A stretch of DNA of 64,000 bases from a phage. Under the pieces are notes generated by a model. That model worked only from the letters and a program-made list of their open reading frames with translations, ran no database searches and was not told where the DNA came from. Below, piece by piece: positions 3,036 through 46,543 of the stretch. The translations under genes and the position numbers were made by a program. The stretch is from the sequence record PQ724394.1. One strand, given 5' to 3'. The first letter of the stretch is position 1, and every line of letters starts with the position of its first letter.

Positions 3036-3988
3036 TGTATACTTTACAAGAATTTCAAAACCAGGCAATTAATATTGACCTACAAAGGAATAACCTGTTT
3101 AGTGTAGTATTTGCTACAGTTCCTTCTTCTAAATCCCAAGCGCTCCTCGACCAGTTCGGTGGAGCTTTATTTAACAATATCCCGTTGAATACCGATTTGT
3201 TTGGAATTACCCAAGGAGATTTAACCCAAGGTGTTACGACATTAGTGACAGCGGGCACTCAGAAGTTGATTCGTAAGTCCGGCATAAGTAAATATCTGAT
3301 TGGAGCTATGTCATCCAGGGTTGTGCAGAGCTTACTAGGTGAGTTTGAAGTCGGGACTTATCTTATGGATTTTTTCAATATGGCTTATCCTACGGCAGGT
3401 CTTTTAGTCCATGCAGTTAAAATTCCGGATAATACTTTGAACTATGAAATGGATTTGAACCACAACTCGCCTAATATCAAAATTACCGGAAGAGAATATT
3501 CCCCATTGGTATTAAGCTTCCGTATGGATTCTGAAGCTGCTAACTACCGTGCTTTTAATGATTGGGTCAATAGTGTCCAAGACCCTATTACACAATTAAG
3601 AGCATTGCCTGAAGATGTTGAAGCTGACATCCAAGTCAACCTTCATTCTCGTAATGGATTGCCACATACGGTGGTAATGCTTAATGGATGTGTTCCTGTT
3701 AGTGTTTCATCGCCGGAATTATCCTATGATGGTGATAACCAAATTGCTTCGTTTGATGTTACATTTGCTTATAGAAGTGTGCAGACAGGTGCAGTTGGTA
3801 AACAAGCTGCTTATGAATGGCTGGAAGATAAAGTCCTTAAAGGCGTAGCAGGTATAAGTGAGAGTAACTCATTAAGTGCTTCTGTAGCTAAATTAAGCCG
3901 ACTTTCAGGAGCTTCTAGTGGATTGACCGGATTGGTTAATACATTTGGTGGGCGTGCTATTAATAATGGAATATCCAGGTTGTTATAA
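3035..3988 (+). CDS. 54: Baseplate tail tube initiator (gp54-like)
   Basis: 317 aa; start overlaps gene 48 stop; synteny. Confidence 0.8.
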   Translation: MYTLQEFQNQAINIDLQRNNLFSVVFATVPSSKSQALLDQFGGALFNNIPLNTDLFGITQGDLTQGVTTLVTAGTQKLIRKSGISKYLIGAMSSRVVQSLLGEFEVGTYLMDFFNMAYPTAGLLVHAVKIPDNTLNYEMDLNHNSPNIKITGREYSPLVLSFRMDSEAANYRAFNDWVNSVQDPITQLRALPEDVEADIQVNLHSRNGLPHTVVMLNGCVPVSVSSPELSYDGDNQIASFDVTFAYRSVQTGAVGKQAAYEWLEDKVLKGVAGISESNSLSASVAKLSRLSGASSGLTGLVNTFGGRAINNGISRLL

Positions 3989-4370: not shown

Positions 4371-6494
4371 CTACATTTTGAATTTATTTGATAAAGAAGA
4401 GATGTCCAAAGATGCAGCAAGGATTTCCATAGCCTCATTACTTTCTGAAACAGATTCTGAAACTAGGAATTCTTTAAACCCATTCATCAATTTAACTTCA
4501 CCGGTTTCCATCAGATGGTCGCCATCGTAAACGGATTCGCTGAGTTCTGAAGGAGATGTCACTGTAGCTTCCATAAGGTATTTGTGAGATACTCTATCAT
4601 TCATAGCAAAAGCCGCTACTTTATCAACCTTCAACAATAACCCGCGCGGAAGGATAATTTCCGCTTCTTCGGCATATTCTGTAAGGTCGCCAGGAGCGAT
4701 AACTTTAACTGCTTCAGCACCTCGAATAACCATACCAATTTCAGCAATCCTGTCTGCAGGGCCTTCAGGTGCAATTGGATTACCAAACTCGTCTTCTTCC
4801 CATTCTACCTCTTCGTCATCGACTTCACCTACGTCAGATGAACTACCACTGGCTAATTTAAACAACTCATCAGCGGAGGATAAAGAACCTTCATCACCGA
4901 CAAAAACTGCTTGGTTGTCGAGGGCCATATAATTTTTACCAAATTCGCCAAAGATATTAGGCTTTAATGAAGCGGACACAAAGTTCTTAAAGTAAAAGGT
5001 TTTGTTATCAATATTATGGCGCAGAATTTTGTATGGTAAATCCTGACCACGATACAAAATAGTACCCTTAGGAAGTTTAATACCCTTGGTAAATGCCGAG
5101 TCTAAATCCTTAATCAATTTAATAGCTGTTGTATTGTTTTCGGATTCAGGTTTACCTAAAAGGAATAAGTTCATAGGAGCATATTCAGCCGCACAATATT
5201 CAATAATGGCATTACTTTCGTCTTTGGTCAAGCCCTTAGGTTTAATGAGCTCGCCTGAATAAGCATATGCATCGCTAATAGAATCGTTAATCAGTTTATA
5301 AACGGCTTCCATAGCGAAAGCAATTCGAGATGCTTTCTCTGAAGGAGACCCCTGAAAACGGGCACTCAGGTTATTAACAATTCTCTTAATAATATCCAGA
5401 CTATTGGTAGTATTGATTTGAGAAAGACCGCTTAAAAGTCTATCGACTTCCGTATTAAAAAATGCCATATTATTAGAGTAAATTTCAAACCCTTGTTTAT
5501 CTCTATTAGCATAATTTAGTTTAAATTTACTATCAGTCATTAAAGCGTGCGTGAGAGCAATGGTGTATCTAAAGTTGGCAAGGTCCTCACTCTTAGATTT
5601 AAACTGAGAGGCCTGTCGCATTTTAGTAATAGAACCTTTTTTAAAGTTCTGGCTAATCTGCTCAATACCTTCGTTCTCAGGGCCTTCGGCCGAGTGAACA
5701 GGGACAGAAGCTTCAAACTCGTTATAAATCTGCAATTCTTTAGGTGATAAAGTTTCGGGTTCGGCAGTAGAATACTGCGCCGCTGCAGCCATACGACGGG
5801 AAATCTTAGTACGAGAAATAACAGCCTTATCGGTACGTTTCTCTTCAACCTGTGCAATAGATGCCGCTACGGCTTCTACTTTACTTACGGCCTGGCCGGT
5901 TTTCTTAGAAACATAAACTTCACCGACTTTAGACTCAACCTTGGTATAAAGGTCTGCATCAATTTCAGGCATACCCTTGATATCTTCGATATTAGAACCA
6001 CGACGTACTAAAAGAACGTAGGTATGTTTACCACTAAACTGGAACATATCATCGACAACTTTAAACTTACCACCGGTACGTGCCATCACCAAACGAGCTA
6101 ATACACGCTGAACGGTAGGACCCTTACCTTTCATTTTCTTGGTAGGGAAACGGAACAAAACTGCATCCATTTTAAGTTTGTTTACTTGTTCGTATACGGT
6201 ATCGAAAATAGTATTCAGTGTACCAAGTGGGTCAGAACCAAGCCCACCTTTGAGTTCAGCCGGAGCACCCTTGCTAGACAAACTCATTAAAATAATATGA
6301 ACGTATTTGTCGCCAGGCTTAACCATTTTAATAGCGTCTCCTTGAGACGCATAAGATACCATACGAGCAACCAGGTTATCATTACCTGGTGCTTGGATAG
6401 AGAAAATCTGTGGGATACCTGAGCCTGGCTTAAGATTTGTTACTGGATAGTTTTTAGCTGAATCACTATCAAAAACTTCGTTTAAATTTTCCAT
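4371..6494 (-). CDS. alt: Alt-type ADP-ribosyltransferase, paralog A (707 aa)
   Basis: N-terminal region conserved with the neighbouring paralog (LVARMVSYAS.GDAIK...LKGGLG); C-terminal R (YRGQ), S-x-S (FVSASL) and E-x-E (EEAEIILPRGL) motifs; position next to DNA ligase as T4 alt. Confidence 0.85.
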   Translation of the reverse strand: MENLNEVFDSDSAKNYPVTNLKPGSGIPQIFSIQAPGNDNLVARMVSYASQGDAIKMVKPGDKYVHIILMSLSSKGAPAELKGGLGSDPLGTLNTIFDTVYEQVNKLKMDAVLFRFPTKKMKGKGPTVQRVLARLVMARTGGKFKVVDDMFQFSGKHTYVLLVRRGSNIEDIKGMPEIDADLYTKVESKVGEVYVSKKTGQAVSKVEAVAASIAQVEEKRTDKAVISRTKISRRMAAAAQYSTAEPETLSPKELQIYNEFEASVPVHSAEGPENEGIEQISQNFKKGSITKMRQASQFKSKSEDLANFRYTIALTHALMTDSKFKLNYANRDKQGFEIYSNNMAFFNTEVDRLLSGLSQINTTNSLDIIKRIVNNLSARFQGSPSEKASRIAFAMEAVYKLINDSISDAYAYSGELIKPKGLTKDESNAIIEYCAAEYAPMNLFLLGKPESENNTTAIKLIKDLDSAFTKGIKLPKGTILYRGQDLPYKILRHNIDNKTFYFKNFVSASLKPNIFGEFGKNYMALDNQAVFVGDEGSLSSADELFKLASGSSSDVGEVDDEEVEWEEDEFGNPIAPEGPADRIAEIGMVIRGAEAVKVIAPGDLTEYAEEAEIILPRGLLLKVDKVAAFAMNDRVSHKYLMEATVTSPSELSESVYDGDHLMETGEVKLMNGFKEFLVSESVSESNEAMEILAASLDISSLSNKFKM

Positions 6495-6497
6495 TAT

Positions 6498-8582
6498 TTA
6501 CCCTTGGATGAATTTTTCTGGTATGTCATAGAGGTCTATGCATGAAGCCAAAAGTGGCAGTACGTCAAACCGTGTAGATTTAACAAATGAATCAAAAGAT
6601 ACAGGGCTTTCGGAAGTATCGAAGTCATCTTGGTATACAACCAATTCACCAGTTTCCATTAGTACGTCACCATCATACACCACAGATTCTTGAAGCTCAT
6701 CTGTGGTCATAACTTCGGCTTGAACGAGTTTTGTATTACTAGATGTTGTTCCGTCATTATTAGAGGCATCGGTTATTTTATTAACTTTGACCATCAATCC
6801 ACGCGGTAGAATAACTTCAGCTTCTGTTGCTATTCCGAGACTTCCTGGATATACAACATTAACTTTATGGGCTCCATCAATTGCCCATCCTATTTGAACT
6901 TTAACGTAATCAGGGTTTTCTTTATACGCTCTTATTTCATTAGGATTAATGGTTATTCCTTCTTCATTTTTATCGACTGTCAATTCATTGCGAACTTCCG
7001 GTTCTAAAAGACCGACACCCGCGTGTGTAACACCAAAACGACCAAAAATGATAGGAGTCAGTGAAGTAGATACAAAATTTCTAAAATAAAATACCTTATT
7101 TTTAACTAGTGCTTCGTATATAGGAGCAGTCATACTTTGAGCACGATAAACTGTAATGCCTTCTGGTATACGGTCACCATTTTCAAAAGCTGAATCAAGA
7201 TTATTAACAGCAGATTCAATAGACCTTTCATTCATTACATCATAGTTCTGAGGATTATAACGTCCTAAAAGAAGATTATTGATGTCGGTATAACCTGAGC
7301 CGCAGTATTCTCTGATGCCGCGCTTTTGTGATGGGGTGTATTTAGAACCATCGCGAGCAATAGTAATATCGACCATAATACCACCGCCTACACCAGCAAA
7401 ACTATATACACGTTTTTTAATGAACTTGGTCTTGGCTGCTTTCCACTTGGACTCGGTTAATTCATTCCAGACGTCGTCAGGCTGACCTTTACGAGTTTTG
7501 TTATGTATAGCCAGCCATTCGCCTTTATATTCTTCAAAAACTGTATTAATAACAGAGGCATACTTTTCTAGAGCTTTAACAGATGTCAAAGGTTCGTTTT
7601 TGATGGCTGTAAGAATTCTCTCTTTAATTTTCTCTTGGATTTCACCTATACCGTGAAGAGGAAACATTTTATATTCATAATGCAACTCTTCAGCAGTGCC
7701 TTCAGCTACTATATTAGCAACTTTATTTTTAGCCGCAGGAGAATTGTTATTGGTGACCATTTCCTGTGCCTCAGGGATTAATGGAGCTGTTGCAGGTTTA
7801 TTAAAATCTGCTGCAGTAGCTTCATATTTCTTAAACAGTTCACTTTCATTACGATAAGATTCTAAAGACTGACTTGCTGCAATAGCGCGACGAGAAATCT
7901 TAGTCTTGGTTATAACCATTTTATCAGTGCGACGTTCTTCAACTTTAGCAATACTGCCGGCAATAGCAGTTTCTTTAGTAACCTGCACACCTTCTTTTTT
8001 AGAAATATAAACTTCACCAACATCAGAATCTACCTTAGTATATAATTCGGCATTAATTCCTGGCATACCTTTGATATCTTCAATATCAGCTTGTTTACGA
8101 ACTACTAGGATATAAGTATGTTTACCGGTAAATTGGTACATGGCTGGAACTACTTTAAAACGTCCACCGGTTTTCTGTGCTACCAAACGTTGGATAATCC
8201 GTTGGACGATAGGTCCTTGTCCTTTCATTTTCTTGGTTGGAAAACGGAACATCACAGCATCCATACGAAGCTTTTTAACTTGTTCGAATACTACGTCGAA
8301 AATGGTATTAATAGCATCAATAGGAGTAGGGCCTAAGCCGCCTTTAAGTTCGGCTGGAGAACCTTTAGCTGAAAGGCTCATAAGGATGACGTGGGCGTAT
8401 TTATCACCTAATTTAACCTGTTTAATAGCATCGCCTTCAGAGGCATAAGATACCATACGGGCCACTAATTGGGATTCGGCGTCGCCAATCTTCCAAATCT
8501 GCGGTACTTTAAGTTTTGGGTTTAAGTTTACAGTAGGCAGGGTGCCTTCAGACTCAAACACTTCATTTAATTGTTCGGTCAT
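6498..8582 (-). CDS. alt: Alt-type ADP-ribosyltransferase, paralog B (694 aa)
   Basis: Same architecture as paralog A; YRAQ, FVSTSL, EAEVILPRGL motifs; AAAGAGGA RBS upstream. Confidence 0.85.
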   Translation of the reverse strand: MTEQLNEVFESEGTLPTVNLNPKLKVPQIWKIGDAESQLVARMVSYASEGDAIKQVKLGDKYAHVILMSLSAKGSPAELKGGLGPTPIDAINTIFDVVFEQVKKLRMDAVMFRFPTKKMKGQGPIVQRIIQRLVAQKTGGRFKVVPAMYQFTGKHTYILVVRKQADIEDIKGMPGINAELYTKVDSDVGEVYISKKEGVQVTKETAIAGSIAKVEERRTDKMVITKTKISRRAIAASQSLESYRNESELFKKYEATAADFNKPATAPLIPEAQEMVTNNNSPAAKNKVANIVAEGTAEELHYEYKMFPLHGIGEIQEKIKERILTAIKNEPLTSVKALEKYASVINTVFEEYKGEWLAIHNKTRKGQPDDVWNELTESKWKAAKTKFIKKRVYSFAGVGGGIMVDITIARDGSKYTPSQKRGIREYCGSGYTDINNLLLGRYNPQNYDVMNERSIESAVNNLDSAFENGDRIPEGITVYRAQSMTAPIYEALVKNKVFYFRNFVSTSLTPIIFGRFGVTHAGVGLLEPEVRNELTVDKNEEGITINPNEIRAYKENPDYVKVQIGWAIDGAHKVNVVYPGSLGIATEAEVILPRGLMVKVNKITDASNNDGTTSSNTKLVQAEVMTTDELQESVVYDGDVLMETGELVVYQDDFDTSESPVSFDSFVKSTRFDVLPLLASCIDLYDIPEKFIQG

Positions 8583-42657: not shown

Positions 42658-43311
42658 ATGGAACCAAAAGTAGGATTTTCATTATCAGACCTACTTTTTG
42701 GACTTCTTGATAGAATTTTTAAAGATACTTCTTCCGGGAAAGTAGTTTTTTCCCGGGTCCTAGTCGTAATATTATTGTTCTTTATGGCATTAGTTTGGTA
42801 TAAAGGCGAGCATATTCTAAACTTTTATAAAGAGACAACTTATGCCTCTTATACTGAAATGATTAGACAAGACCAGGACAATAGATTTAAAATTGCGGCT
42901 ATCGAGCAGCTCCGAATAGTGCATTCTTCTTCAGGCGCAGACTTCACAGCAATATATTCTTTTAGGCCGACCAACATGAATTATTTTGTGGACATGGTTG
43001 CTTATGAGGGTAAATTACCGGAAACGGTAGACGCAAAAAATACGGGAGGATTTCCGATTGACAAAACGTCAGTAGAGTATATGGCGGGAGTTAACGGGAA
43101 CTATTTTGAATCATCTACTGAATCTGTGTTTCTCCCTACAAAGGAGAAAACCCATTTCACTTATATGTTTTCATGCCCGTTTTTTAATTTGGATAACATC
43201 TATGCCGGCTCGATATCATTATACTGGTATGACATCAAACCGGATTTAGGATTTCCTAGACTTTCGTCTATGTGTGGTCAGGCCGGGAGGACATTAGGTC
43301 GAACTCGTTAA
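42658..43311 (+). CDS. t: Holin / lysis inhibition sensor T
   Basis: 217 aa; N-terminal TM segment; conserved FSCPFFNLDNIYAGSI and KTHFTYMF blocks as T4 holin T. Confidence 0.9.
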   Translation: MEPKVGFSLSDLLFGLLDRIFKDTSSGKVVFSRVLVVILLFFMALVWYKGEHILNFYKETTYASYTEMIRQDQDNRFKIAAIEQLRIVHSSSGADFTAIYSFRPTNMNYFVDMVAYEGKLPETVDAKNTGGFPIDKTSVEYMAGVNGNYFESSTESVFLPTKEKTHFTYMFSCPFFNLDNIYAGSISLYWYDIKPDLGFPRLSSMCGQAGRTLGRTR

Positions 43312-43583
43312 AAATTGGAGGTATACATCATTAGATAACGGTGTATATCTTCATACCCTTCATTAAATTGCTCAATAAGAGTATCACGTTCATCTTCAGT
43401 TAAAGACTTAAAGAGTTTATTAAAAGATAGGCCATTAAGTTCCTTTCCATGTTCATTACGAATACCTAACTCATTCAAAAAGGCAATAAACTCATCACGA
43501 CGTTGCATGATGTCTTCACAATCCGTTTTAATCAAAATGGAAACAATAGTAGCAATTTCGGAAACGATTTCAATTTTAGTCAT
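43308..43583 (-). CDS. asiA: Anti-sigma-70 factor AsiA
   Basis: 91 aa; ..FIAFLNELGI...LTEDERDTLIEQFNEGYEDIHRYLMMYT matches T4 AsiA. Confidence 0.9.
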   Translation of the reverse strand: MTKIEIVSEIATIVSILIKTDCEDIMQRRDEFIAFLNELGIRNEHGKELNGLSFNKLFKSLTEDERDTLIEQFNEGYEDIHRYLMMYTSNF

Positions 43584-43641
43584 TTTAATTTACTCAAGTA
43601 TTCAATAGGACATTCATTTATTCAGTAAGAATATTGTAACA

Positions 43642-43893
43642 CTATTCTTCTAGATTGTACACATGATTTTTCATCCGTACAACATATTCCTGATACATTT
43701 CTTCAATAGGTTCCTGGAACTTAAAATCAGCTCCTAGGAATTCCTCAAAGCACTCCTGCTCACGTGTACGCATACCTGTTACGGTATTCTCTAAGTTATG
43801 ACTCATAGCCTTTACCCTTATGTTTCTGCTTACGCTTAGACTCTTTAAAATTTTTCTTCTTGTCCTTATGGACCGAAGCCTTATTGAAATCAT
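43642..43893 (-). CDS. Hypothetical protein (83 aa; may start at internal ATG 43806)
   Basis: ORF; first ATG 2 nt after upstream stop, internal ATG has AGGG RBS. Confidence 0.4.
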   Translation of the reverse strand: MISIRLRSIRTRRKILKSLSVSRNIRVKAMSHNLENTVTGMRTREQECFEEFLGADFKFQEPIEEMYQEYVVRMKNHVYNLEE

Positions 43894-43895
43894 GC

Positions 43896-44180
43896 TTAGC
43901 TACAAGATTGTTCATCACGTAATTTCCTTAATTGATATTCAAGAGAACTGATAATTTCTTTATTAGTTGCAATATACATATCACGTAGGAACGGCTTCAA
44001 CCCTTCCATATTCCCATGAATTGTCTTAGAACTAATATTCTTTATATATTCATGGTCTAATGCATCCCAAGCCGGCTGGTTGACATAAGTTCCCCAATTA
44101 TCTTCAACCATAACATTCAGACGTTTAATATGGTTGATATGGGCTTCGATTGCATCAATCTGGAGTTGTTTAAGATTCAT
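43896..44180 (-). CDS. Hypothetical protein (94 aa)
   Basis: ORF in arn-like position. Confidence 0.45.
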   Translation of the reverse strand: MNLKQLQIDAIEAHINHIKRLNVMVEDNWGTYVNQPAWDALDHEYIKNISSKTIHGNMEGLKPFLRDMYIATNKEIISSLEYQLRKLRDEQSCS

Positions 44181-44668
44181 TAGTAAAGGTCCTCAGAGTA
44201 AAGTTCTTTTTCACTACCACCACGTTCAATACGAACTTGATTAGCATATGTTGCAATAATCATTGCTTCTTCGCGAGTCCAATAATTTGAGTATTGGTCG
44301 ATAAATCCTTGGTCATCACCGCAAACATGCTCAGATACAAGTTTATCACTTACTTGGTCAAGCACTTCTGCCATATCTTTAGAATAATGTCGAGCGCCAG
44401 GAATAACCAAAGTCCCACCGTCTTTTAACTTAAAGCGGTTGGCTGCACACACAATTCGTCGCTGATATTTTTCATTGTTATTCCAATGAGCAATCTGCCA
44501 ACAGATTTCAGGAACCTCTTCCAAAACATCCTCTTCCGAATATTCAGTGTAATCACCATAGGCCCGTAATTTGGCCGCTAAGCTTTCAGGCGTCTCGCGA
44601 GAAAGAGCTTTATCTAATAAAGCCATACGGTCTTTAAAAGATAATTCTTTACCTTTTAATGGATTCAT
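44180..44668 (-). CDS. Hypothetical protein (162 aa)
   Basis: ORF, start overlaps upstream stop. Confidence 0.5.
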
Positions 44669-45024
44669 TTCACAATTACCTTATAGCCTTTAACTTTAGA
44701 AAATGATTGGATTTTGGAACCGGTTTCTATCAACATATCTTCATTAGAAGAAGATAGCATGATATCCACAATTTGGCCTTTACCGTATGGGTTGATAGAA
44801 ACTTCTTCCTCGGCAATCATAGCTAAAAATCTATTTAACTGCATACCAAATTCAAGAGTCACTTCATGAATACGAAGGTTAAGCTGGTATACTTTCTTAA
44901 CACCGTTAACTAAGGAAGTCATTTCACCCCATGCATTACGTTGTTCTTCGCGAGGCTCTTCAATCAATTTAAGGGAATGGCCTTCGCCGTCCCAGTTAAG
45001 TTCCATCGGAATCATTTGAACCAT
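44665..45024 (-). CDS. Hypothetical protein (119 aa)
   Basis: ORF. Confidence 0.45.
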
Positions 45025-45341
45025 CCTTTAACACGTTGCCATAAAGTTTTCTGTTGAGCTTTATTAACACCAATTGAACGAATGACCGGTTGTGATTCCT
45101 GGTATTCTTTGTAGTCGGCTTTATAGACTTCATAAGCAGCCGGAACAAAGGTGCTGATGGCCGCCATAAAGTTCTTACGAATTCCCATAGAAGCTTCAGA
45201 ACCACCACGGATGATTAAGTATTTACCCGCTTTAATCTTAACAATAGTTCCAAGATAAGCGCCATGGTACCAAATATCCCAACCTTCTTGAGTAGGTTCT
45301 GCACAACGACGAAGTTCATTAACAATATTCAGCTTGTTCAT
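45012..45341 (-). CDS. Hypothetical protein (109 aa)
   Basis: ORF directly downstream of motA. Confidence 0.45.
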   Translation of the reverse strand: MNKLNIVNELRRCAEPTQEGWDIWYHGAYLGTIVKIKAGKYLIIRGGSEASMGIRKNFMAAISTFVPAAYEVYKADYKEYQESQPVIRSIGVNKAQQKTLWQRVKGWFK

Positions 45342-45359
45342 AATAATTTCCTCAGTCAG

Positions 45360-45992
45360 TTAAATTGCGTTGGTTACGGTTTTGATAACTTCAGATGATA
45401 CGTTTTGGAAGTCGATATAAGTATTCTTACCACCAGTCTTAATCTTAACATCAAGATTCAAGGAAGTAAACACTTGTTTTTCTTTATCAGTCATATTATA
45501 ACCGAAGATACGCATCATTCCGTCACGACGGACTTCGATTTGACGAATACCGTTGGTACGTTTAGCGAATCGAACTTCAAGATTGCTACGGTTTTCAGCG
45601 ATTTCACGAATCTCGATACGGTCTTCTAACAAAGATTTAACTTCATCAGCCAATACCACCATTTCAGGAGTAACACCACGCGAACTGCGAGTTTTACGTT
45701 TTTCCAACATCTCTGGAGCATTTTCAGAAGCGAACAGGTCAGCAGCTTTTTGAACTAGGTCCATTGCTTCACCCGTAGCCACCAGTCCATCACCAGATTT
45801 TTCGATGAATCCTTTCTTAATCAATACACCGATGTTAGAGTTAACTACCGCTGCACTAAATTGTTCACTCAGGGCTTCACGGACTTCGCCTGAAGTGATG
45901 AAGTTATTCTTGATGATATGTACTAAGATAGAAGCCGTTTTTTCATTCAGGACGTCTTCAGAAGCTTTGATGATATAAGTAATTTTAGACAT
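45360..45992 (-). CDS. motA: Middle-transcription activator MotA
   Basis: MSKITYIIKASEDVLNEKTASIL...VVNSNIGVLIKKGF.EKSGDGL matches T4 MotA; ATG at 45992 with GGAG RBS (track start is upstream inside promoter). Confidence 0.9.
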   Translation of the reverse strand: MSKITYIIKASEDVLNEKTASILVHIIKNNFITSGEVREALSEQFSAAVVNSNIGVLIKKGFIEKSGDGLVATGEAMDLVQKAADLFASENAPEMLEKRKTRSSRGVTPEMVVLADEVKSLLEDRIEIREIAENRSNLEVRFAKRTNGIRQIEVRRDGMMRIFGYNMTDKEKQVFTSLNLDVKIKTGGKNTYIDFQNVSSEVIKTVTNAI

Positions 45993-46026
45993 TTTAATCT
46001 CCGATAACCATTTATTTGATAGGTCT

Positions 46027-46055
46027 ATAGTATCATGTTTAAAGCAGAAGTAAAC
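46027..46055 (-). promoter_or_regulatory. Early-promoter cassette for motA (GTTTAC -35, 17 nt, TACTAT -10)
   Basis: Minus strand GTTTAC 46055-46050, TACTAT 46032-46027; TGCTTTA element at 46046-46040. Confidence 0.55.
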
Positions 46056-46093
46056 TTTATTAGAGCTCTTTTTCAAGAGCTCTAATAAAGTAC

Positions 46094-46321
46094 TTACTTA
46101 ATGTTCAGATTACGAACTTCGATTTCGTCTTCAGGGGCAAAATCAAACTGTTTGAATTCTGTGTCACCTTTAAATTTAAAAATCATTGTGAAGAAAGTCA
46201 GAACACCGGGTTTTTCTTCACGAACTCCACAGATATCATATTCAATACCATCTACAACCAGTTTGTTAGCAGTCAGAGCATTTTTAGCTTTAACGATTTC
46301 GTTTTCGATTTTAAATTTCAT
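46094..46321 (-). CDS. Hypothetical protein (75 aa)
   Basis: ORF with GGGAGA RBS and cassette upstream. Confidence 0.5.
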   Translation of the reverse strand: MKFKIENEIVKAKNALTANKLVVDGIEYDICGVREEKPGVLTFFTMIFKFKGDTEFKQFDFAPEDEIEVRNLNIK

Positions 46322-46368
46322 TTTTGTATCTCCCGGTTGTTTGTTTCAGTTCATTTATTTGATAGGTC

Positions 46369-46398
46369 TATAGTATCATGTTTAAAGCAGATGTAAAC
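46369..46398 (-). promoter_or_regulatory. Early-promoter cassette (GTTTAC -35, 18 nt, TACTAT -10)
   Basis: Near-identical copy of the motA cassette. Confidence 0.55.
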
Positions 46399-46422
46399 AC
46401 TTTTTTGCACTAAACCCAAAAA

Positions 46423-46438
46423 GGAACCCGAAGGTTCC
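46423..46438 (-). terminator. Rho-independent terminator (UUCG hairpin + U-run) after small ORF
   Basis: GGAACC-cgaa-GGTTCC; on minus transcript followed by UUUUUGGG. Confidence 0.65.
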
Positions 46439-46543
46439 TTACTTTTTAAAGTGAGCCGCTATTAGACCTATAGCTAAGCCCGTTGCCAGGCCTAGGATAA
46501 CAGCAAAGATACAGAGTAACAAGAACTCAACTCCAAGGCTCAT
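46439..46543 (-). CDS. Small hydrophobic peptide (34 aa), coupled to gene 52 stop
   Basis: ATG overlaps gene 52 TGA (ATGA); MSLGVEFLLLCIFAVILGLATGLAIGLIAAHFKK; not in ORF track. Confidence 0.4.
   Translation of the reverse strand: MSLGVEFLLLCIFAVILGLATGLAIGLIAAHFKK

What the first reader, a model, noticed from the sequence alone, without database searches (positions are those of the whole stretch)
43642..45341. Five-gene block of unknown function between asiA and motA
The interval between the two best-characterised host-takeover regulators holds five ORFs (83-162 aa) with no motif I can recognise. In T4 this position is occupied by arn (anti-restriction) and arn.x genes, a known hot spot for anti-defence functions. 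These ORFs are therefore prime candidates for new inhibitors of host defence systems.
Basis: inference. Interest (0 to 1): 0.5.

Follow-up and report, generated by a model that had tools for sequence, protein, structure and literature searches.

The report
T-even phage arn operon without arn
The block between asiA and motA is the already catalogued "arn operon" of a JS10/JS98-like T-even phage, with six real small genes rather than five and no arn gene; no function has been shown for any of them, but one protein (Arn.3) carries a short module resembling the antitoxin of a bacterial anti-T4 defence system, which can be tested directly.

Summary
The window is a Dhakavirus (96% identical to phage JS10). 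The ORFs are real, but the gene list needs correcting. The 83-aa ORF is an artefact. It joins a 54-aa AsiA.1-like gene to an out-of-frame reading of a hidden, highly conserved 39-aa lysine-rich gene (Pfam DUF7230).

The true order is motA, arn.4 (109 aa), ORF4 (116 aa), arn.3, arn.2, DUF7230, asiA.1-like, asiA. Four genes are homologues of T4 arn.4, arn.3, arn.2 and asiA.1. Only ORF4 is restricted to Dhakavirus. The one proven anti-restriction gene of this locus, arn, is absent, as is arn.1.

All six genes are under purifying selection. Arn.4, DUF7230 and Arn.3 are better conserved than MotA and AsiA. ORF4 and the AsiA.1-like gene sit in two cassette-swapping slots.

The literature calls arn.1-4 "function unknown", finds them dispensable for T4 in a lab host, and already lists the Arn/AsiA region as an accessory hot spot.

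New lead: Arn.3 residues 9-40 match the N-terminal, toxin-binding part of CmdA, the antitoxin of CmdTAC (PD-T4-9_B, E=3e-9). This suggests antitoxin mimicry. A comparison across the BASEL phages is suggestive only (p≈0.12). Anti-defence is plausible but unproven.

The parts
45012..45341 (-). arn.4, long form (109 aa, pI 9.7). Starts 18 nt after the motA stop and has a GAGG Shine-Dalgarno sequence.
   Evidence: 100% identical to JS10 Arn.4; 78% identical to T4 Arn.4 over residues 42-109. phrog_1594, E=2e-53. Family PF26821. Present in 33 of 33 motA loci. dN/dS about 0.1. The AF2 model is poor (pLDDT 57) and was not used.
44665..45015 (-). ORF4, a Dhakavirus-restricted cassette gene (116 aa from MIPMEL; acidic, pI 5.2). 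It has ATGA stop/start overlaps with arn.4 and arn.3. Its first ~21 residues match the leader found on some Arn.3 homologues.
   Evidence: 97% identical to JS10 gp250. phrog_14178. Only 6 clusters among 5.8 billion proteins. Leader shared with P0021, P0073, P0088 and P0095. The slot is empty in L026 and L014, holds a 51-aa ORF in L012 and Bas35, and holds a 67%-identical allele in JS98 while the flanking genes are 100% identical.
44180..44668 (-). arn.3 (162 aa): an N-terminal two-helix module followed by the T4_Y16D core domain.
44549..44644 (-). CmdA-like module of Arn.3 (residues 9-40; predicted helices 11-23 and 27-36).
   Evidence: PADLOC PD-T4-9_B, E=2.8e-9, 35.5 bits, profile positions 2-33 of 77. 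14 of 52 family members hit, best E=2e-12. The same module lies inside a 320-aa Jedunavirus protein.
43896..44180 (-). arn.2 (94 aa). Its start overlaps the arn.3 stop by one base (TAATG).
   Evidence: 96% identical to JS10 Arn.2; 38% identical to T4 Arn.2. phrog_1844. dN/dS 0.16-0.21. It lacks the ArcZ pairing site CCAGGGAAA that sits at the 3' end of T4 arn.2.
43796..43915 (-). Hidden sixth gene: a 39-aa lysine-rich protein (DUF7230, pI 10.2). Its start overlaps the arn.2 stop, and its TAA overlaps the ATG of the next gene.
   Evidence: Pfam PF23876, E=3.6e-13, 49.8 bits against a gathering score of 27. phrog_1359, E=1e-22. Annotated in JS98 and JS10. Unannotated homologue in T4. Frame open in 21 of 21 loci. 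dN/dS 0.03-0.10.
43642..43806 (-). asiA.1-like gene (54 aa, acidic, pI 4.6).
   Evidence: 88% identical to JS10 gp245; 46% identical to T4 AsiA.1 over 24 residues. phrog_5245, matched from residue 30 of the 83-aa ORF. AAGGG/AAAGG Shine-Dalgarno sequence.
43807..43893 (-). 29-codon extension that produced the '83-aa ORF'. Not a gene.
   Evidence: No Shine-Dalgarno sequence. Out of frame with the conserved DUF7230 gene. The related loci scanned show only 52- or 54-aa ORFs at this position, none of 83 aa.
46009..46091 (-). Early promoter (TTTACT-17-TACTAT) abutting a perfect 17-bp stem-loop upstream of motA. This is the likely promoter of the whole block.
   Evidence: Sequence read directly. 47-nt repeat 98% identical to 46352-46398, and inverted repeat I2. 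No terminator-like site on the minus strand between 43600 and 45360. Only one weak MotA-box-like site, at 44367.
43308..43583 (-). asiA (flanking gene), with its own promoter-like site at 43633-43661.
   Evidence: Pfam AsiA, E=2.4e-22. Promoter scan.
45360..45992 (-). motA (flanking gene).
   Evidence: Pfam MotA_activ 4.8e-39 and MotCF 1.9e-13.

Best explanation
The block is the Dhakavirus version of the T-even 'arn operon'. It holds six small genes (arn.4, ORF4, arn.3, arn.2, a DUF7230 micro-gene and an asiA.1-like gene), packed with overlapping stop and start codons.

The genes are most likely read through from the early promoter upstream of motA. This step is inferred.

They are accessory host-interaction proteins, not housekeeping genes. 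That is shown for the T4 homologues only.

Four genes (arn.4, arn.3, arn.2, DUF7230) form a conserved scaffold. Two slots between them exchange cassettes. One lies between arn.4 and arn.3 and holds ORF4 here. The other lies between DUF7230 and asiA; here it holds only the asiA.1-like gene, and arn is absent.

The mechanism I commit to, as inference: at least Arn.3 is a counter-defence protein. Its N-terminal two-helix module copies the toxin-binding end of CmdA, the antitoxin of the CmdTAC system. It lacks the chaperone-addiction tail and the ClpXP degron of CmdA. It could therefore keep the CmdT mRNA ADP-ribosyltransferase neutralised after the host antitoxin has been degraded. The enzyme-like T4_Y16D core may add a second activity.

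ORF4 and the acidic AsiA.1-like protein are the next most likely inhibitors, acting by binding their targets one-to-one. Arn.4 and the basic DUF7230 peptide more probably target conserved host machinery.

How sure I am of each layer: about 0.95 that the locus is this operon with these six genes, about 0.5 that the block has some counter-defence role, and about 0.25 that Arn.3 specifically mimics CmdA.
For: Identity of the locus: 96% DNA identity to JS10, with the same gene order as JS98 and dhabil; pairwise identities to the T4 and JS10 proteins.

Real genes: PHROG and Pfam matches; dN/dS 0.0-0.2.

Operon structure: Shine-Dalgarno sequences and ATGA/TAATG overlaps; no terminator inside the block; early promoter plus stem-loop upstream of motA. 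The T2 arn genes are reported to form one transcript (bioRxiv 10.64898/2026.06.19.733364).

Accessory nature: every CRISPRi-ART guide against T4 asiA.1, arn and arn.1-4 scores 'Not fit' (PMC11879866).

Cassette slots.

Arn.3 and CmdA: PD-T4-9_B hit at E=2.8e-9 over residues 9-40, matching profile positions 2-33 of 77. 14 of 52 relatives hit, best E=2e-12. [quoted passage not shown]

BASEL comparison: both phages that escape CmdTAC (Bas35, Bas38) have the CmdA-like N-terminus (25.6 and 28.0 bits). None of the nine phages with the T4-type N-terminus (14-16 bits) escapes.

Arn.3 core: a confident model with no PDB neighbour, invariant polar residues, presence in about 1,600 phage records across several families, and Foldseek matches to segments of 'large polyvalent protein' entries.
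Against: No experiment links any of these six genes to a defence system. Silas et al. screened AsiA.1-type and DUF7230-type genes, and the main text names no phenotype for them.

T4 has an Arn.3 and is still strongly restricted by CmdTAC. Three phages with a CmdA-like N-terminus (Bas36, Bas46, Bas47) are sensitive. Bas36 differs from the resistant Bas35 at only a few positions. The association is not significant (Fisher p about 0.11-0.13), and the N-terminus is at best necessary, not sufficient.

I could not obtain a CmdA sequence. That model B of PD-T4-9 is CmdA rests on the gene order T-A-C and on the model's length.

The same 30-residue module occurs in an unrelated 320-aa Jedunavirus protein, so it may be a general interaction module rather than a toxin binder.

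Arn.4, DUF7230 and Arn.3 are more conserved than MotA and AsiA, which is unusual for genes in an arms race.

Transcription from the motA promoter is inferred from sequence only.
Confidence: 0.5

Rival explanations
1. Host takeover without any link to defence. The conserved scaffold proteins (Arn.4, the Arn.3 core, Arn.2, the DUF7230 peptide) bind or modify conserved host machinery such as RNA polymerase, the ribosome, RNA or the nucleoid. They would tune early infection, like their neighbours MotA and AsiA.
For: Arn.4 (84%), DUF7230 (84%) and Arn.3 (77%) are far better conserved between Dhakavirus and Tequatrovirus than MotA (52%) and AsiA (53%). arn.4 is present in 33 of 33 motA loci, and DUF7230 and arn.3 in most of them. 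The genes are co-transcribed and contiguous with motA. Arn.4 and DUF7230 are strongly basic, with pI 9.7 and 10.2. In Kuttervirus the Arn.3 core follows the topoisomerase II genes, and in phage muut it precedes a phosphoesterase and an RNA ligase.
Against: Knock-down of the T4 homologues has no fitness cost in lab E. coli, which argues against a central takeover role. The Arn.3 core is 78% identical between T-even phages and a 145-kb 'Septuagintavirus' record, which I did not examine further. It also occurs in several unrelated phage families, a spread typical of exchangeable accessory genes. Widely conserved T4 genes can still be anti-defence genes (Acb1 and Acb2; from my own knowledge). The CmdA-like module points to a defence target.
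Confidence: 0.3
2. The CmdA similarity reflects common descent of a generic two-helix interaction module, or capture of a phage module by a P2-prophage-borne defence system. In that case Arn.3 has no activity against CmdTAC, and its function lies entirely in the T4_Y16D core.
For: Most family members lack the N-terminal module: 38 of 52 do not hit, and many are 89-127 aa and consist of the core alone. The module also occurs inside an unrelated 320-aa Jedunavirus protein. CmdTAC of ECOR22 lies in a P2-like prophage hot spot, where exchange with phage genes is easy (bioRxiv 10.1101/2024.02.24.581848). Bas36, Bas46 and Bas47 carry the module but are restricted.
Against: The match covers exactly the part of CmdA described as the structured, toxin-neutralising end, and none of the chaperone-addiction tail. 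Both natural escapers carry the high-scoring variant. CmdA sequences are reported to be unusually variable between otherwise homologous systems (PMC9519451), as expected if phages mimic them.
Confidence: 0.15
3. The ORFs are chance reading frames or decaying remnants in a spacer between two regulators.
For: One of the five, the 83-aa ORF, is partly an artefact.
Against: All six genes show dN/dS of 0.0-0.2 at dS up to more than 1. Each has strong family matches, a ribosome-binding site and conserved synteny across 33 loci.
Confidence: 0.02

Closest known systems
arn operon of phages T4 and T2 (arn.4-arn.3-arn.2-arn.1-arn, followed by asiA.1 and asiA)
   Same: Same position between motA and asiA. 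Orthologous arn.4, arn.3, arn.2 and DUF7230 micro-gene, and an asiA.1-type gene. Same tight packing of genes.
   Different: No arn and no arn.1. No 70-nt intergenic region and no ArcZ pairing site, so the ArcZ/RNase E control described for T2 cannot work in that form. An extra gene, ORF4, lies between arn.4 and arn.3. arn.4 is the full 109-aa form.
Arn (T4 DNA-mimic inhibitor of McrBC, H-NS and PUA-Cal-HAD)
   Same: It is the known anti-defence gene of this locus. JS10 carries a distant homologue, gp246, at the same position (reciprocal PHROG hits at 0.003 and 0.005; BLASTP E=0.001).
   Different: None of the window's genes is an Arn homologue. tblastn with T4 Arn and with JS10 gp246 finds nothing convincing in the 64-kb window.
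CmdA, antitoxin of the CmdTAC (PD-T4-9) toxin-antitoxin-chaperone defence system
   Same: Arn.3 residues 9-40 match the N-terminal ~32 positions of the PADLOC PD-T4-9_B profile (E=2.8e-9). That segment is predicted to form two helices, as described for CmdA.
   Different: No chaperone-addiction tail and no C-terminal LAA degron. The module is fused to a ~110-aa T4_Y16D domain. It is encoded by a lytic phage, not next to a toxin and a SecB-like chaperone.
Phage inhibitors of toxin-antitoxin defence: Dmd of T4, pseudo-ToxI of phage phiTE, TifA of T4 (recalled from my own knowledge, not tested here)
   Same: The proposed logic is the same: the phage supplies a stable substitute for a labile host antitoxin.
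   Different: Those cases have experimental proof. Here only a sequence similarity and a weak natural correlation exist.
Domains of large polyvalent proteins (Iyer et al. 2017, PMC5512222)
   Same: Foldseek places the Arn.3 core on segments of three 'large polyvalent protein associated domain-containing' proteins (probability 0.99-1.0). Such proteins are collections of conflict effectors.
   Different: E-values are only 3e-3 to 6e-2, with 20-24% identity. This was not confirmed by sequence. Pfam LPD families do not match Arn.3.

Membership tests
T-even arn operon (synteny group) | Lies between motA and asiA on the same strand, directly downstream of motA. | tested here: met
T-even arn operon (synteny group) | Contains orthologues of arn.4, arn.3 and arn.2. 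| tested here: met
   BLASTP at 78%, 72% and 38% identity to T4, E from 5e-39 to 5e-21.
T-even arn operon (synteny group) | Contains arn, the McrBC inhibitor that gives the operon its name. | tested here: not met
   No Arn or JS10_246 homologue in the block or anywhere in the window. The JS10 insertion is absent here and in dhabil and JS98.
T-even arn operon (synteny group) | ArcZ pairing site at the arn.2 3' end, followed by an intergenic region with an RNase E site (as described for T2). | tested here: not met
   CCAGGGAAA is present at positions +285 to +294 of T4 arn.2 and absent here. There is no match with up to one mismatch between 43300 and 46100. The ArcZ sequence was recalled from memory.
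Pfam PF26092 T4_Y16D (Arn.3) | Sequence match to the family. | tested here: met
   The closest homologues all carry PF26092, named T4_Y16D. 72% identical to T4 Arn.3. The local Pfam copy lacks this model.
Pfam PF23876 DUF7230 | Score above the gathering threshold. | tested here: met
   49.8 bits against a threshold of 27, E=3.6e-13. 12 of 12 relatives match.
ArfA (alternative ribosome-rescue factor A), considered for the lysine-rich peptide | Sequence or profile similarity to PF03889. | tested here: not met
   hhalign probability 0.3%. 0 of 12 members hit PF03889. No PDB hit.
CmdA antitoxin of CmdTAC (PD-T4-9_B) | N-terminal two-helix, toxin-neutralising region. | tested here: met
   Profile positions 2-33 matched, E=2.8e-9. 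Helices predicted at 11-23 and 27-36.
CmdA antitoxin of CmdTAC (PD-T4-9_B) | Unstructured C-terminal chaperone-addiction domain ending in a ClpXP degron (LAA). | tested here: not met
   Profile positions 34-77 are not matched. Arn.3 ends in ...SEDLY and continues into a folded domain.
CmdA antitoxin of CmdTAC (PD-T4-9_B) | Encoded between a CmdT ADP-ribosyltransferase and a SecB-like chaperone. | tested here: not met
   The neighbours are ORF4 and arn.2, and neither gives a PADLOC hit.
CmdA antitoxin of CmdTAC (PD-T4-9_B) | Binds and neutralises CmdT. | not testable with these tools
   Needs co-expression or pull-down experiments.
Anti-defence protein (functional class) | Restores phage growth on a host that carries a defined defence system. 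| not testable with these tools
   Indirect data only: the T4 homologues are dispensable, and the BASEL correlation gives p about 0.12.

The most novel reading that the evidence does not exclude
Arn.3 is a two-part counter-defence protein against mRNA-ADP-ribosylating TAC systems. Its N-terminal module is a degradation-proof mimic of the CmdA antitoxin that holds CmdT inactive. The T4_Y16D core is a small domain with no neighbour in the PDB and an enzyme-like set of invariant Arg, His, Gln and Asp residues. The core would act on the same pathway, for example by binding or removing ADP-ribose from RNA. That would explain why the core alone is spread over about 1,600 phage genomes and sits next to RNA-repair genes in phage muut. 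The variability of CmdA between systems, and of the Arn.3 N-terminus between phages, would then be two sides of one arms race.
Probability: 0.15. Interest if true: 0.75.

Novelty: already known. Interest (0 to 1): 0.38.

Why it matters
It is a known, already deposited set of "conserved hypothetical" T-even genes in a locus that others have already flagged as an accessory hot spot.

Its value lies in four refinements.

1. The locus has a defined architecture: four very conserved scaffold genes and two cassette slots. This tells an experimenter which genes to screen against defence systems (ORF4, the asiA.1-like gene, the slot variants) and which to test for conserved host targets (Arn.4, DUF7230).

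2. A 39-aa gene conserved across the T4 superfamily is missing from the T4 reference annotation.

3. The T4 reference arn.4 is annotated without its most conserved 41 codons.

4. The Arn.3-CmdA similarity turns the question "what do arn.1-4 do?", stated as open in a June 2026 preprint, into a simple co-expression experiment with a published system.

Tried and rejected
(1) ArfA-like ribosome-rescue function for the lysine-rich peptide. The idea came from a resemblance I recalled. Rejected: hhalign probability 0.3%, 0 of 12 members hit PF03889, and E. coli ArfA hits DUF7230 only at E=0.11.

(2) Structure of Arn.4. The AF2 model has pLDDT 56.9 and is unusable, so no fold search was run on it.

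(4) PDB sequence searches for Arn.2, ORF4, Arn.4 and DUF7230: nothing below E=0.1.

(5) Pfam and NCBIfam scans of the five ORFs: only sub-threshold noise.

(6) Bacterial homologues of Arn.3: only 9 loci among 185,579 species, all stand-alone 96-127-aa genes, apart from one ambiguous locus (L050) with overlapping 154- and 171-aa ORFs. Some of the loci look phage-derived. None was informative. The contexts of distant metagenomic homologues were also uninformative.

(7) Obtaining a CmdA sequence. tblastn against plasmids and blastn against E. coli genomes, using the Arn.3 N-terminus as query, found nothing.

(8) Middle (MotA-dependent) promoter for the block: no exact MotA box on the minus strand and only one weak candidate, at 44367.

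(9) Arn elsewhere in the window. The best hit is E=0.02 at 6876-7025, which I treated as chance and did not follow up.

(10) Confirming by sequence the Foldseek link between Arn.3 and polyvalent proteins: not achieved.
Full report
WHAT THE WINDOW IS

The 3-kb region around the finding is 96% identical to Escherichia phage JS10 and 89-97% identical to other Dhakavirus genomes: JS98, dhabil, dhaeg, MN04 and Bp7. The surroundings are those of a T-even phage. In order they are gp37, gp38, holin t, then on the other strand asiA, the block, motA, a 75-aa ORF and topoisomerase gene 52. AsiA and MotA are confirmed by Pfam (2.4e-22 and 4.8e-39).

CHECKING THE OBSERVATION

All five ORFs are at the stated coordinates on the minus strand. 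Each matches a PHROG family of unknown function at E 1e-33 to 1e-72. None matches Pfam or NCBIfam above threshold in the local copies.

Comparison with the annotated JS10, dhabil, JS98 and T4 loci and pairwise BLASTP give these identities:
- ORF5 is Arn.4: 100% identical to JS10, 78% identical to T4 over the T4 length.
- ORF4 is JS10 gp250 (97%); it has no T4 counterpart.
- ORF3 is Arn.3: 99% identical to JS10, 72% to T4.
- ORF2 is Arn.2: 96% identical to JS10, 38% to T4.
- ORF1 contains a 54-aa gene: 88% identical to JS10 gp245, and 46% identical to T4 AsiA.1 over its first 24 residues.

THE 83-aa ORF IS AN ARTEFACT AND THERE IS A SIXTH GENE

Reading the sequence shows a 39/40-aa lysine-rich ORF at 43796-43915/43918. 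Its start overlaps the arn.2 stop, and its TAA overlaps the ATG of the 54-aa gene. The ORF matches Pfam DUF7230 above the gathering score (49.8 bits against 27) and phrog_1359. It is annotated in JS98 and JS10.

The T4 reference has an unannotated homologue between arn.1 and arn (L003 2081-2200). The frame is open in all 21 related loci I checked, while the other two frames carry stop codons in almost every locus. dN/dS is 0.03-0.10.

The first 29 codons of the 83-aa ORF run out of frame across this gene and have no Shine-Dalgarno sequence. None of the related loci scanned has an ORF of that length at this position; they have 52- or 54-aa ORFs. The block therefore holds six genes.

ORF4 most likely starts at 45015 (MIPMEL...). 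That is the start seen in its homologues, and it forms an ATGA overlap with the arn.4 stop.

WHAT IS MISSING

JS10 and IME341 have an extra 93-aa acidic gene between the DUF7230 gene and the asiA.1-like gene. It is a distant Arn homologue: the PHROG hits are reciprocal (0.003 and 0.005), BLASTP gives E=0.001, and it has the same length and position as Arn. The window lacks it, as do dhabil and JS98, and tblastn finds no Arn elsewhere in the 64 kb. arn.1 is absent as well.

Arn is the only gene of this locus with a demonstrated anti-defence role. It is a DNA mimic that inhibits McrBC, and it was recently shown to inhibit PUA-Cal-HAD.

ARCHITECTURE ACROSS RELATIVES

I fetched 33 motA loci from IMG/VR, with MotA 40-100% identical to the window's, and mapped their plus-strand ORFs onto reference proteins. 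The counts below are approximate tallies of that map.
- arn.4 in its 107-135-aa form: 33 of 33 loci.
- arn.3: about 31.
- DUF7230 gene: about 29.
- arn.2: about 20.
- arn.1: about 19.
- arn: variable in type and presence.
- ORF4: only a subset of Dhakaviruses.

The slot between arn.4 and arn.3 has at least four states. It is empty in L026, which is 100% identical in MotA, and in L014. It holds the window's type of ORF4 here and in JS10. It holds a 112-aa allele only 67% identical in JS98, although the flanking arn.4 and arn.3 are 100% identical. It holds an unrelated 51-aa ORF in L012 and Bas35. Every junction uses an AAATGA stop/start overlap.

The first ~21 residues of ORF4 ([21 protein letters not shown]) recur at the N-terminus of Arn.3 homologues in other phages. 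ORF4 therefore looks like a cassette inserted behind an Arn.3-type leader.

A second variable slot lies between the DUF7230 gene and asiA. Here it holds only the asiA.1-like gene.

CONSERVATION

Between the window and T4-type phages, amino-acid identity is 84% for Arn.4, 84% for DUF7230 and 77% for Arn.3, against 52% for MotA and 53% for AsiA. All have low dN/dS.

EXPRESSION SIGNALS

Every gene has a Shine-Dalgarno sequence. There is no terminator-like site on the minus strand inside the block. There is no exact MotA box and only one weak candidate.

A T4-type early promoter abuts a perfect 17-bp stem-loop just upstream of motA. A 98%-identical 47-nt copy lies 343 nt further upstream, and the two flank the 75-aa ORF. 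This is the promoter-early-stem-loop (PeSL) arrangement described for T4-type phages (PMC2839356, PMC4122927). Read-through from this promoter is my inference.

For T2, a June 2026 preprint reports that arn.4 to arn form one transcript. That transcript is stabilised by the host sRNA ArcZ, which pairs with the 3' end of arn.2 upstream of an RNase E site. The pairing sequence CCAGGGAAA is present at that position in T4. It is absent from the window's arn.2 and from the whole block. The ArcZ sequence I used was recalled from memory.

WHAT IS KNOWN ABOUT FUNCTION

The same preprint states that the functions of arn.1-4 are unknown. In the CRISPRi-ART data set, every guide against T4 asiA.1, arn and arn.1-4 is classed 'Not fit', meaning that knock-down has no measurable cost in the lab host.

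Silas et al. list 'Arn/AsiA' accessory regions. They included an AsiA.1, a DUF7230 ORF and a JS10_246-type protein among their 200 screened genes, and the main text names no phenotype for them.

STRUCTURE AND DISTRIBUTION OF ARN.3

Homologues carry Pfam PF26092 (T4_Y16D). The alignment shows a ~110-aa core with these motifs: [27 protein letters not shown] and a strictly C-terminal LFSEDLY. R93, H94, Q120, G121, F122, D124, R132 and Q144 are invariant.

The domain occurs in about 1,600 of 50,697 phage records. These include Ackermannviridae, Stephanstirmvirinae, Pseudomonas phages of more than 280 kb and a 46-kb Klebsiella phage. In Kuttervirus it follows the topoisomerase II genes. In phage muut it precedes a phosphoesterase and an RNA ligase.

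Foldseek against BFVD finds its own family. It also finds, at probability 0.99-1.0 but with E of 3e-3 to 6e-2, segments of three 'large polyvalent protein' entries. I treat that as a lead only. In bacterial genomes the domain is rare (9 loci) and stand-alone, apart from one ambiguous locus with overlapping longer ORFs.

THE ARN.3-CmdA LEAD

A scan of the six proteins against PADLOC gave one clear hit. Arn.3 residues 9-40 match PD-T4-9_B at E=2.8e-9 and 35.5 bits, covering profile positions 2-33 of 77. 14 of the 52 aligned family members hit, with a best E of 2e-12.

PD-T4-9 is CmdTAC (PMC9519451), a toxin-antitoxin-chaperone system that blocks T-even phages. [quoted passage not shown] Capsid protein displaces the chaperone CmdC, CmdA is then degraded, and CmdT ADP-ribosylates mRNA (PMC11618068).

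The matched part of Arn.3 is predicted to form two helices, at 11-23 and 27-36. The chaperone-addiction tail is not matched. A phage protein with only the toxin-binding end of the antitoxin would be a stable antitoxin mimic.

I assign model B to CmdA from the gene order T-A-C and from the model's length. I could not retrieve a CmdA sequence to check this directly.

A NATURAL TEST

[quoted passage not shown] I extracted Arn.3 from all 13 BASEL Tevenvirinae and from T4.
- CmdA-like N-terminus, MK(T/S)F(K/E)ERL..., 25.6-31.3 bits: Bas35, Bas36, Bas38, Bas46, Bas47.
- T4-type N-terminus, MNPFINRLKMLNVPL..., 14.2-16.4 bits: Bas37, Bas39-45 and T4.

Both escapers are in the first class and none is in the second. 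Three members of the first class are nevertheless restricted. Fisher's exact p is about 0.11-0.13, so the result is compatible with 'necessary but not sufficient' and proves nothing. The paper tested 12 of the 13 phages, and I do not know which one was left out.

The window's variant scores highest of all (35.5 bits). The same module also sits inside a 320-aa Jedunavirus protein, so it may be a more general interaction module. No paper in the library links Arn.3 to CmdA.

VERDICT

The locus is indeed an accessory hot spot, and the genes are not housekeeping genes. However, they are known families, arn itself is absent, and an anti-defence function is unproven.

As a finding it is already known. 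The corrected architecture and the CmdA-like module are the useful additions.

Noticed in passing
window 43796-43915 (-); T4 locus L003 2081-2200 (-): A 39-aa lysine-rich gene (DUF7230) is conserved at about 70-87% identity across the T4 superfamily. It is not annotated in the T4 reference NC_000866, where it lies between arn.1 and arn and overlaps both.
   Followed up: yes
L003 (T4) about 3335-3457 (-), compared with L035 844-1173: T4 arn.4 is annotated as 68 aa because the start codon of the 109-aa form reads ATA instead of ATG in the T4 reference. The frame upstream is fully open, and those 41 codons are the most conserved part of the family (C13, E15, G20, W21, W24, H26, Y29-G31 are invariant).
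   Followed up: partly
window 46009-46055 and 46352-46398; stem-loops at 46054-46091 and 46421-46440: A 47-nt early-promoter sequence is duplicated at 98% identity. Each copy is preceded by a stem-loop, and the two flank the 75-aa ORF at 46094-46321. This is the PeSL cassette arrangement thought to drive module shuffling in T4-type phages.
   Followed up: partly
window 43896-43930 (3' end of arn.2) and the whole of 43300-46100: The ArcZ sRNA pairing site (CCAGGGAAA) and the intergenic region with the RNase E site, reported to control the T2 arn transcript, are absent. This phage cannot use that host-sRNA mechanism in the described form.
   Followed up: partly
protein P0001 (203 aa, from a 170,556-bp contig): An Arn.3 variant carries two N-terminal modules in tandem, one of the Dhakavirus type and one of the T4 type, ahead of a single core domain.
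   Followed up: no
L056 2689-3651 (Klebsiella phage PCCM_KpPS2, Jedunavirus): A 320-aa protein contains the same ~30-residue module (FEERLGLLDKALTKETPESLAEKLQSY) in its middle. It scores 35.6 bits against PD-T4-9_B.
   Followed up: partly
L059 8841-8996 (Bas35 WilhelmHis); L012 about 5974-6129: A 51-aa ORF (MKTFKIV.EFYNGEGVV...) occupies the arn.4/arn.3 slot in some Tequatrovirus and Dhakavirus genomes, including the CmdTAC-resistant Bas35. The other resistant phage, Bas38, lacks it.
   Followed up: no
L045 2480-4324 (Escherichia phage muut): The Arn.3-core homologue overlaps the start of a phosphoesterase gene, which is followed by an RNA ligase. This neighbourhood resembles an RNA-repair module.
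   Followed up: no
window 6876-7025 (-): Weak tblastn similarity to the Arn-like JS10 gp246 (37% over 51 aa, E=0.02). Probably chance.
   Followed up: no
BFVD hits A0A6J5LI71, A0A6J5LG11 and A0A6J5SNR6; W8CZM4 (Erwinia phage PhiEaH1, 291 aa): An Arn.3-like fold is reported inside three 'large polyvalent protein' entries and as part of a 291-aa protein. Both suggest multidomain architectures for this domain.
   Followed up: partly
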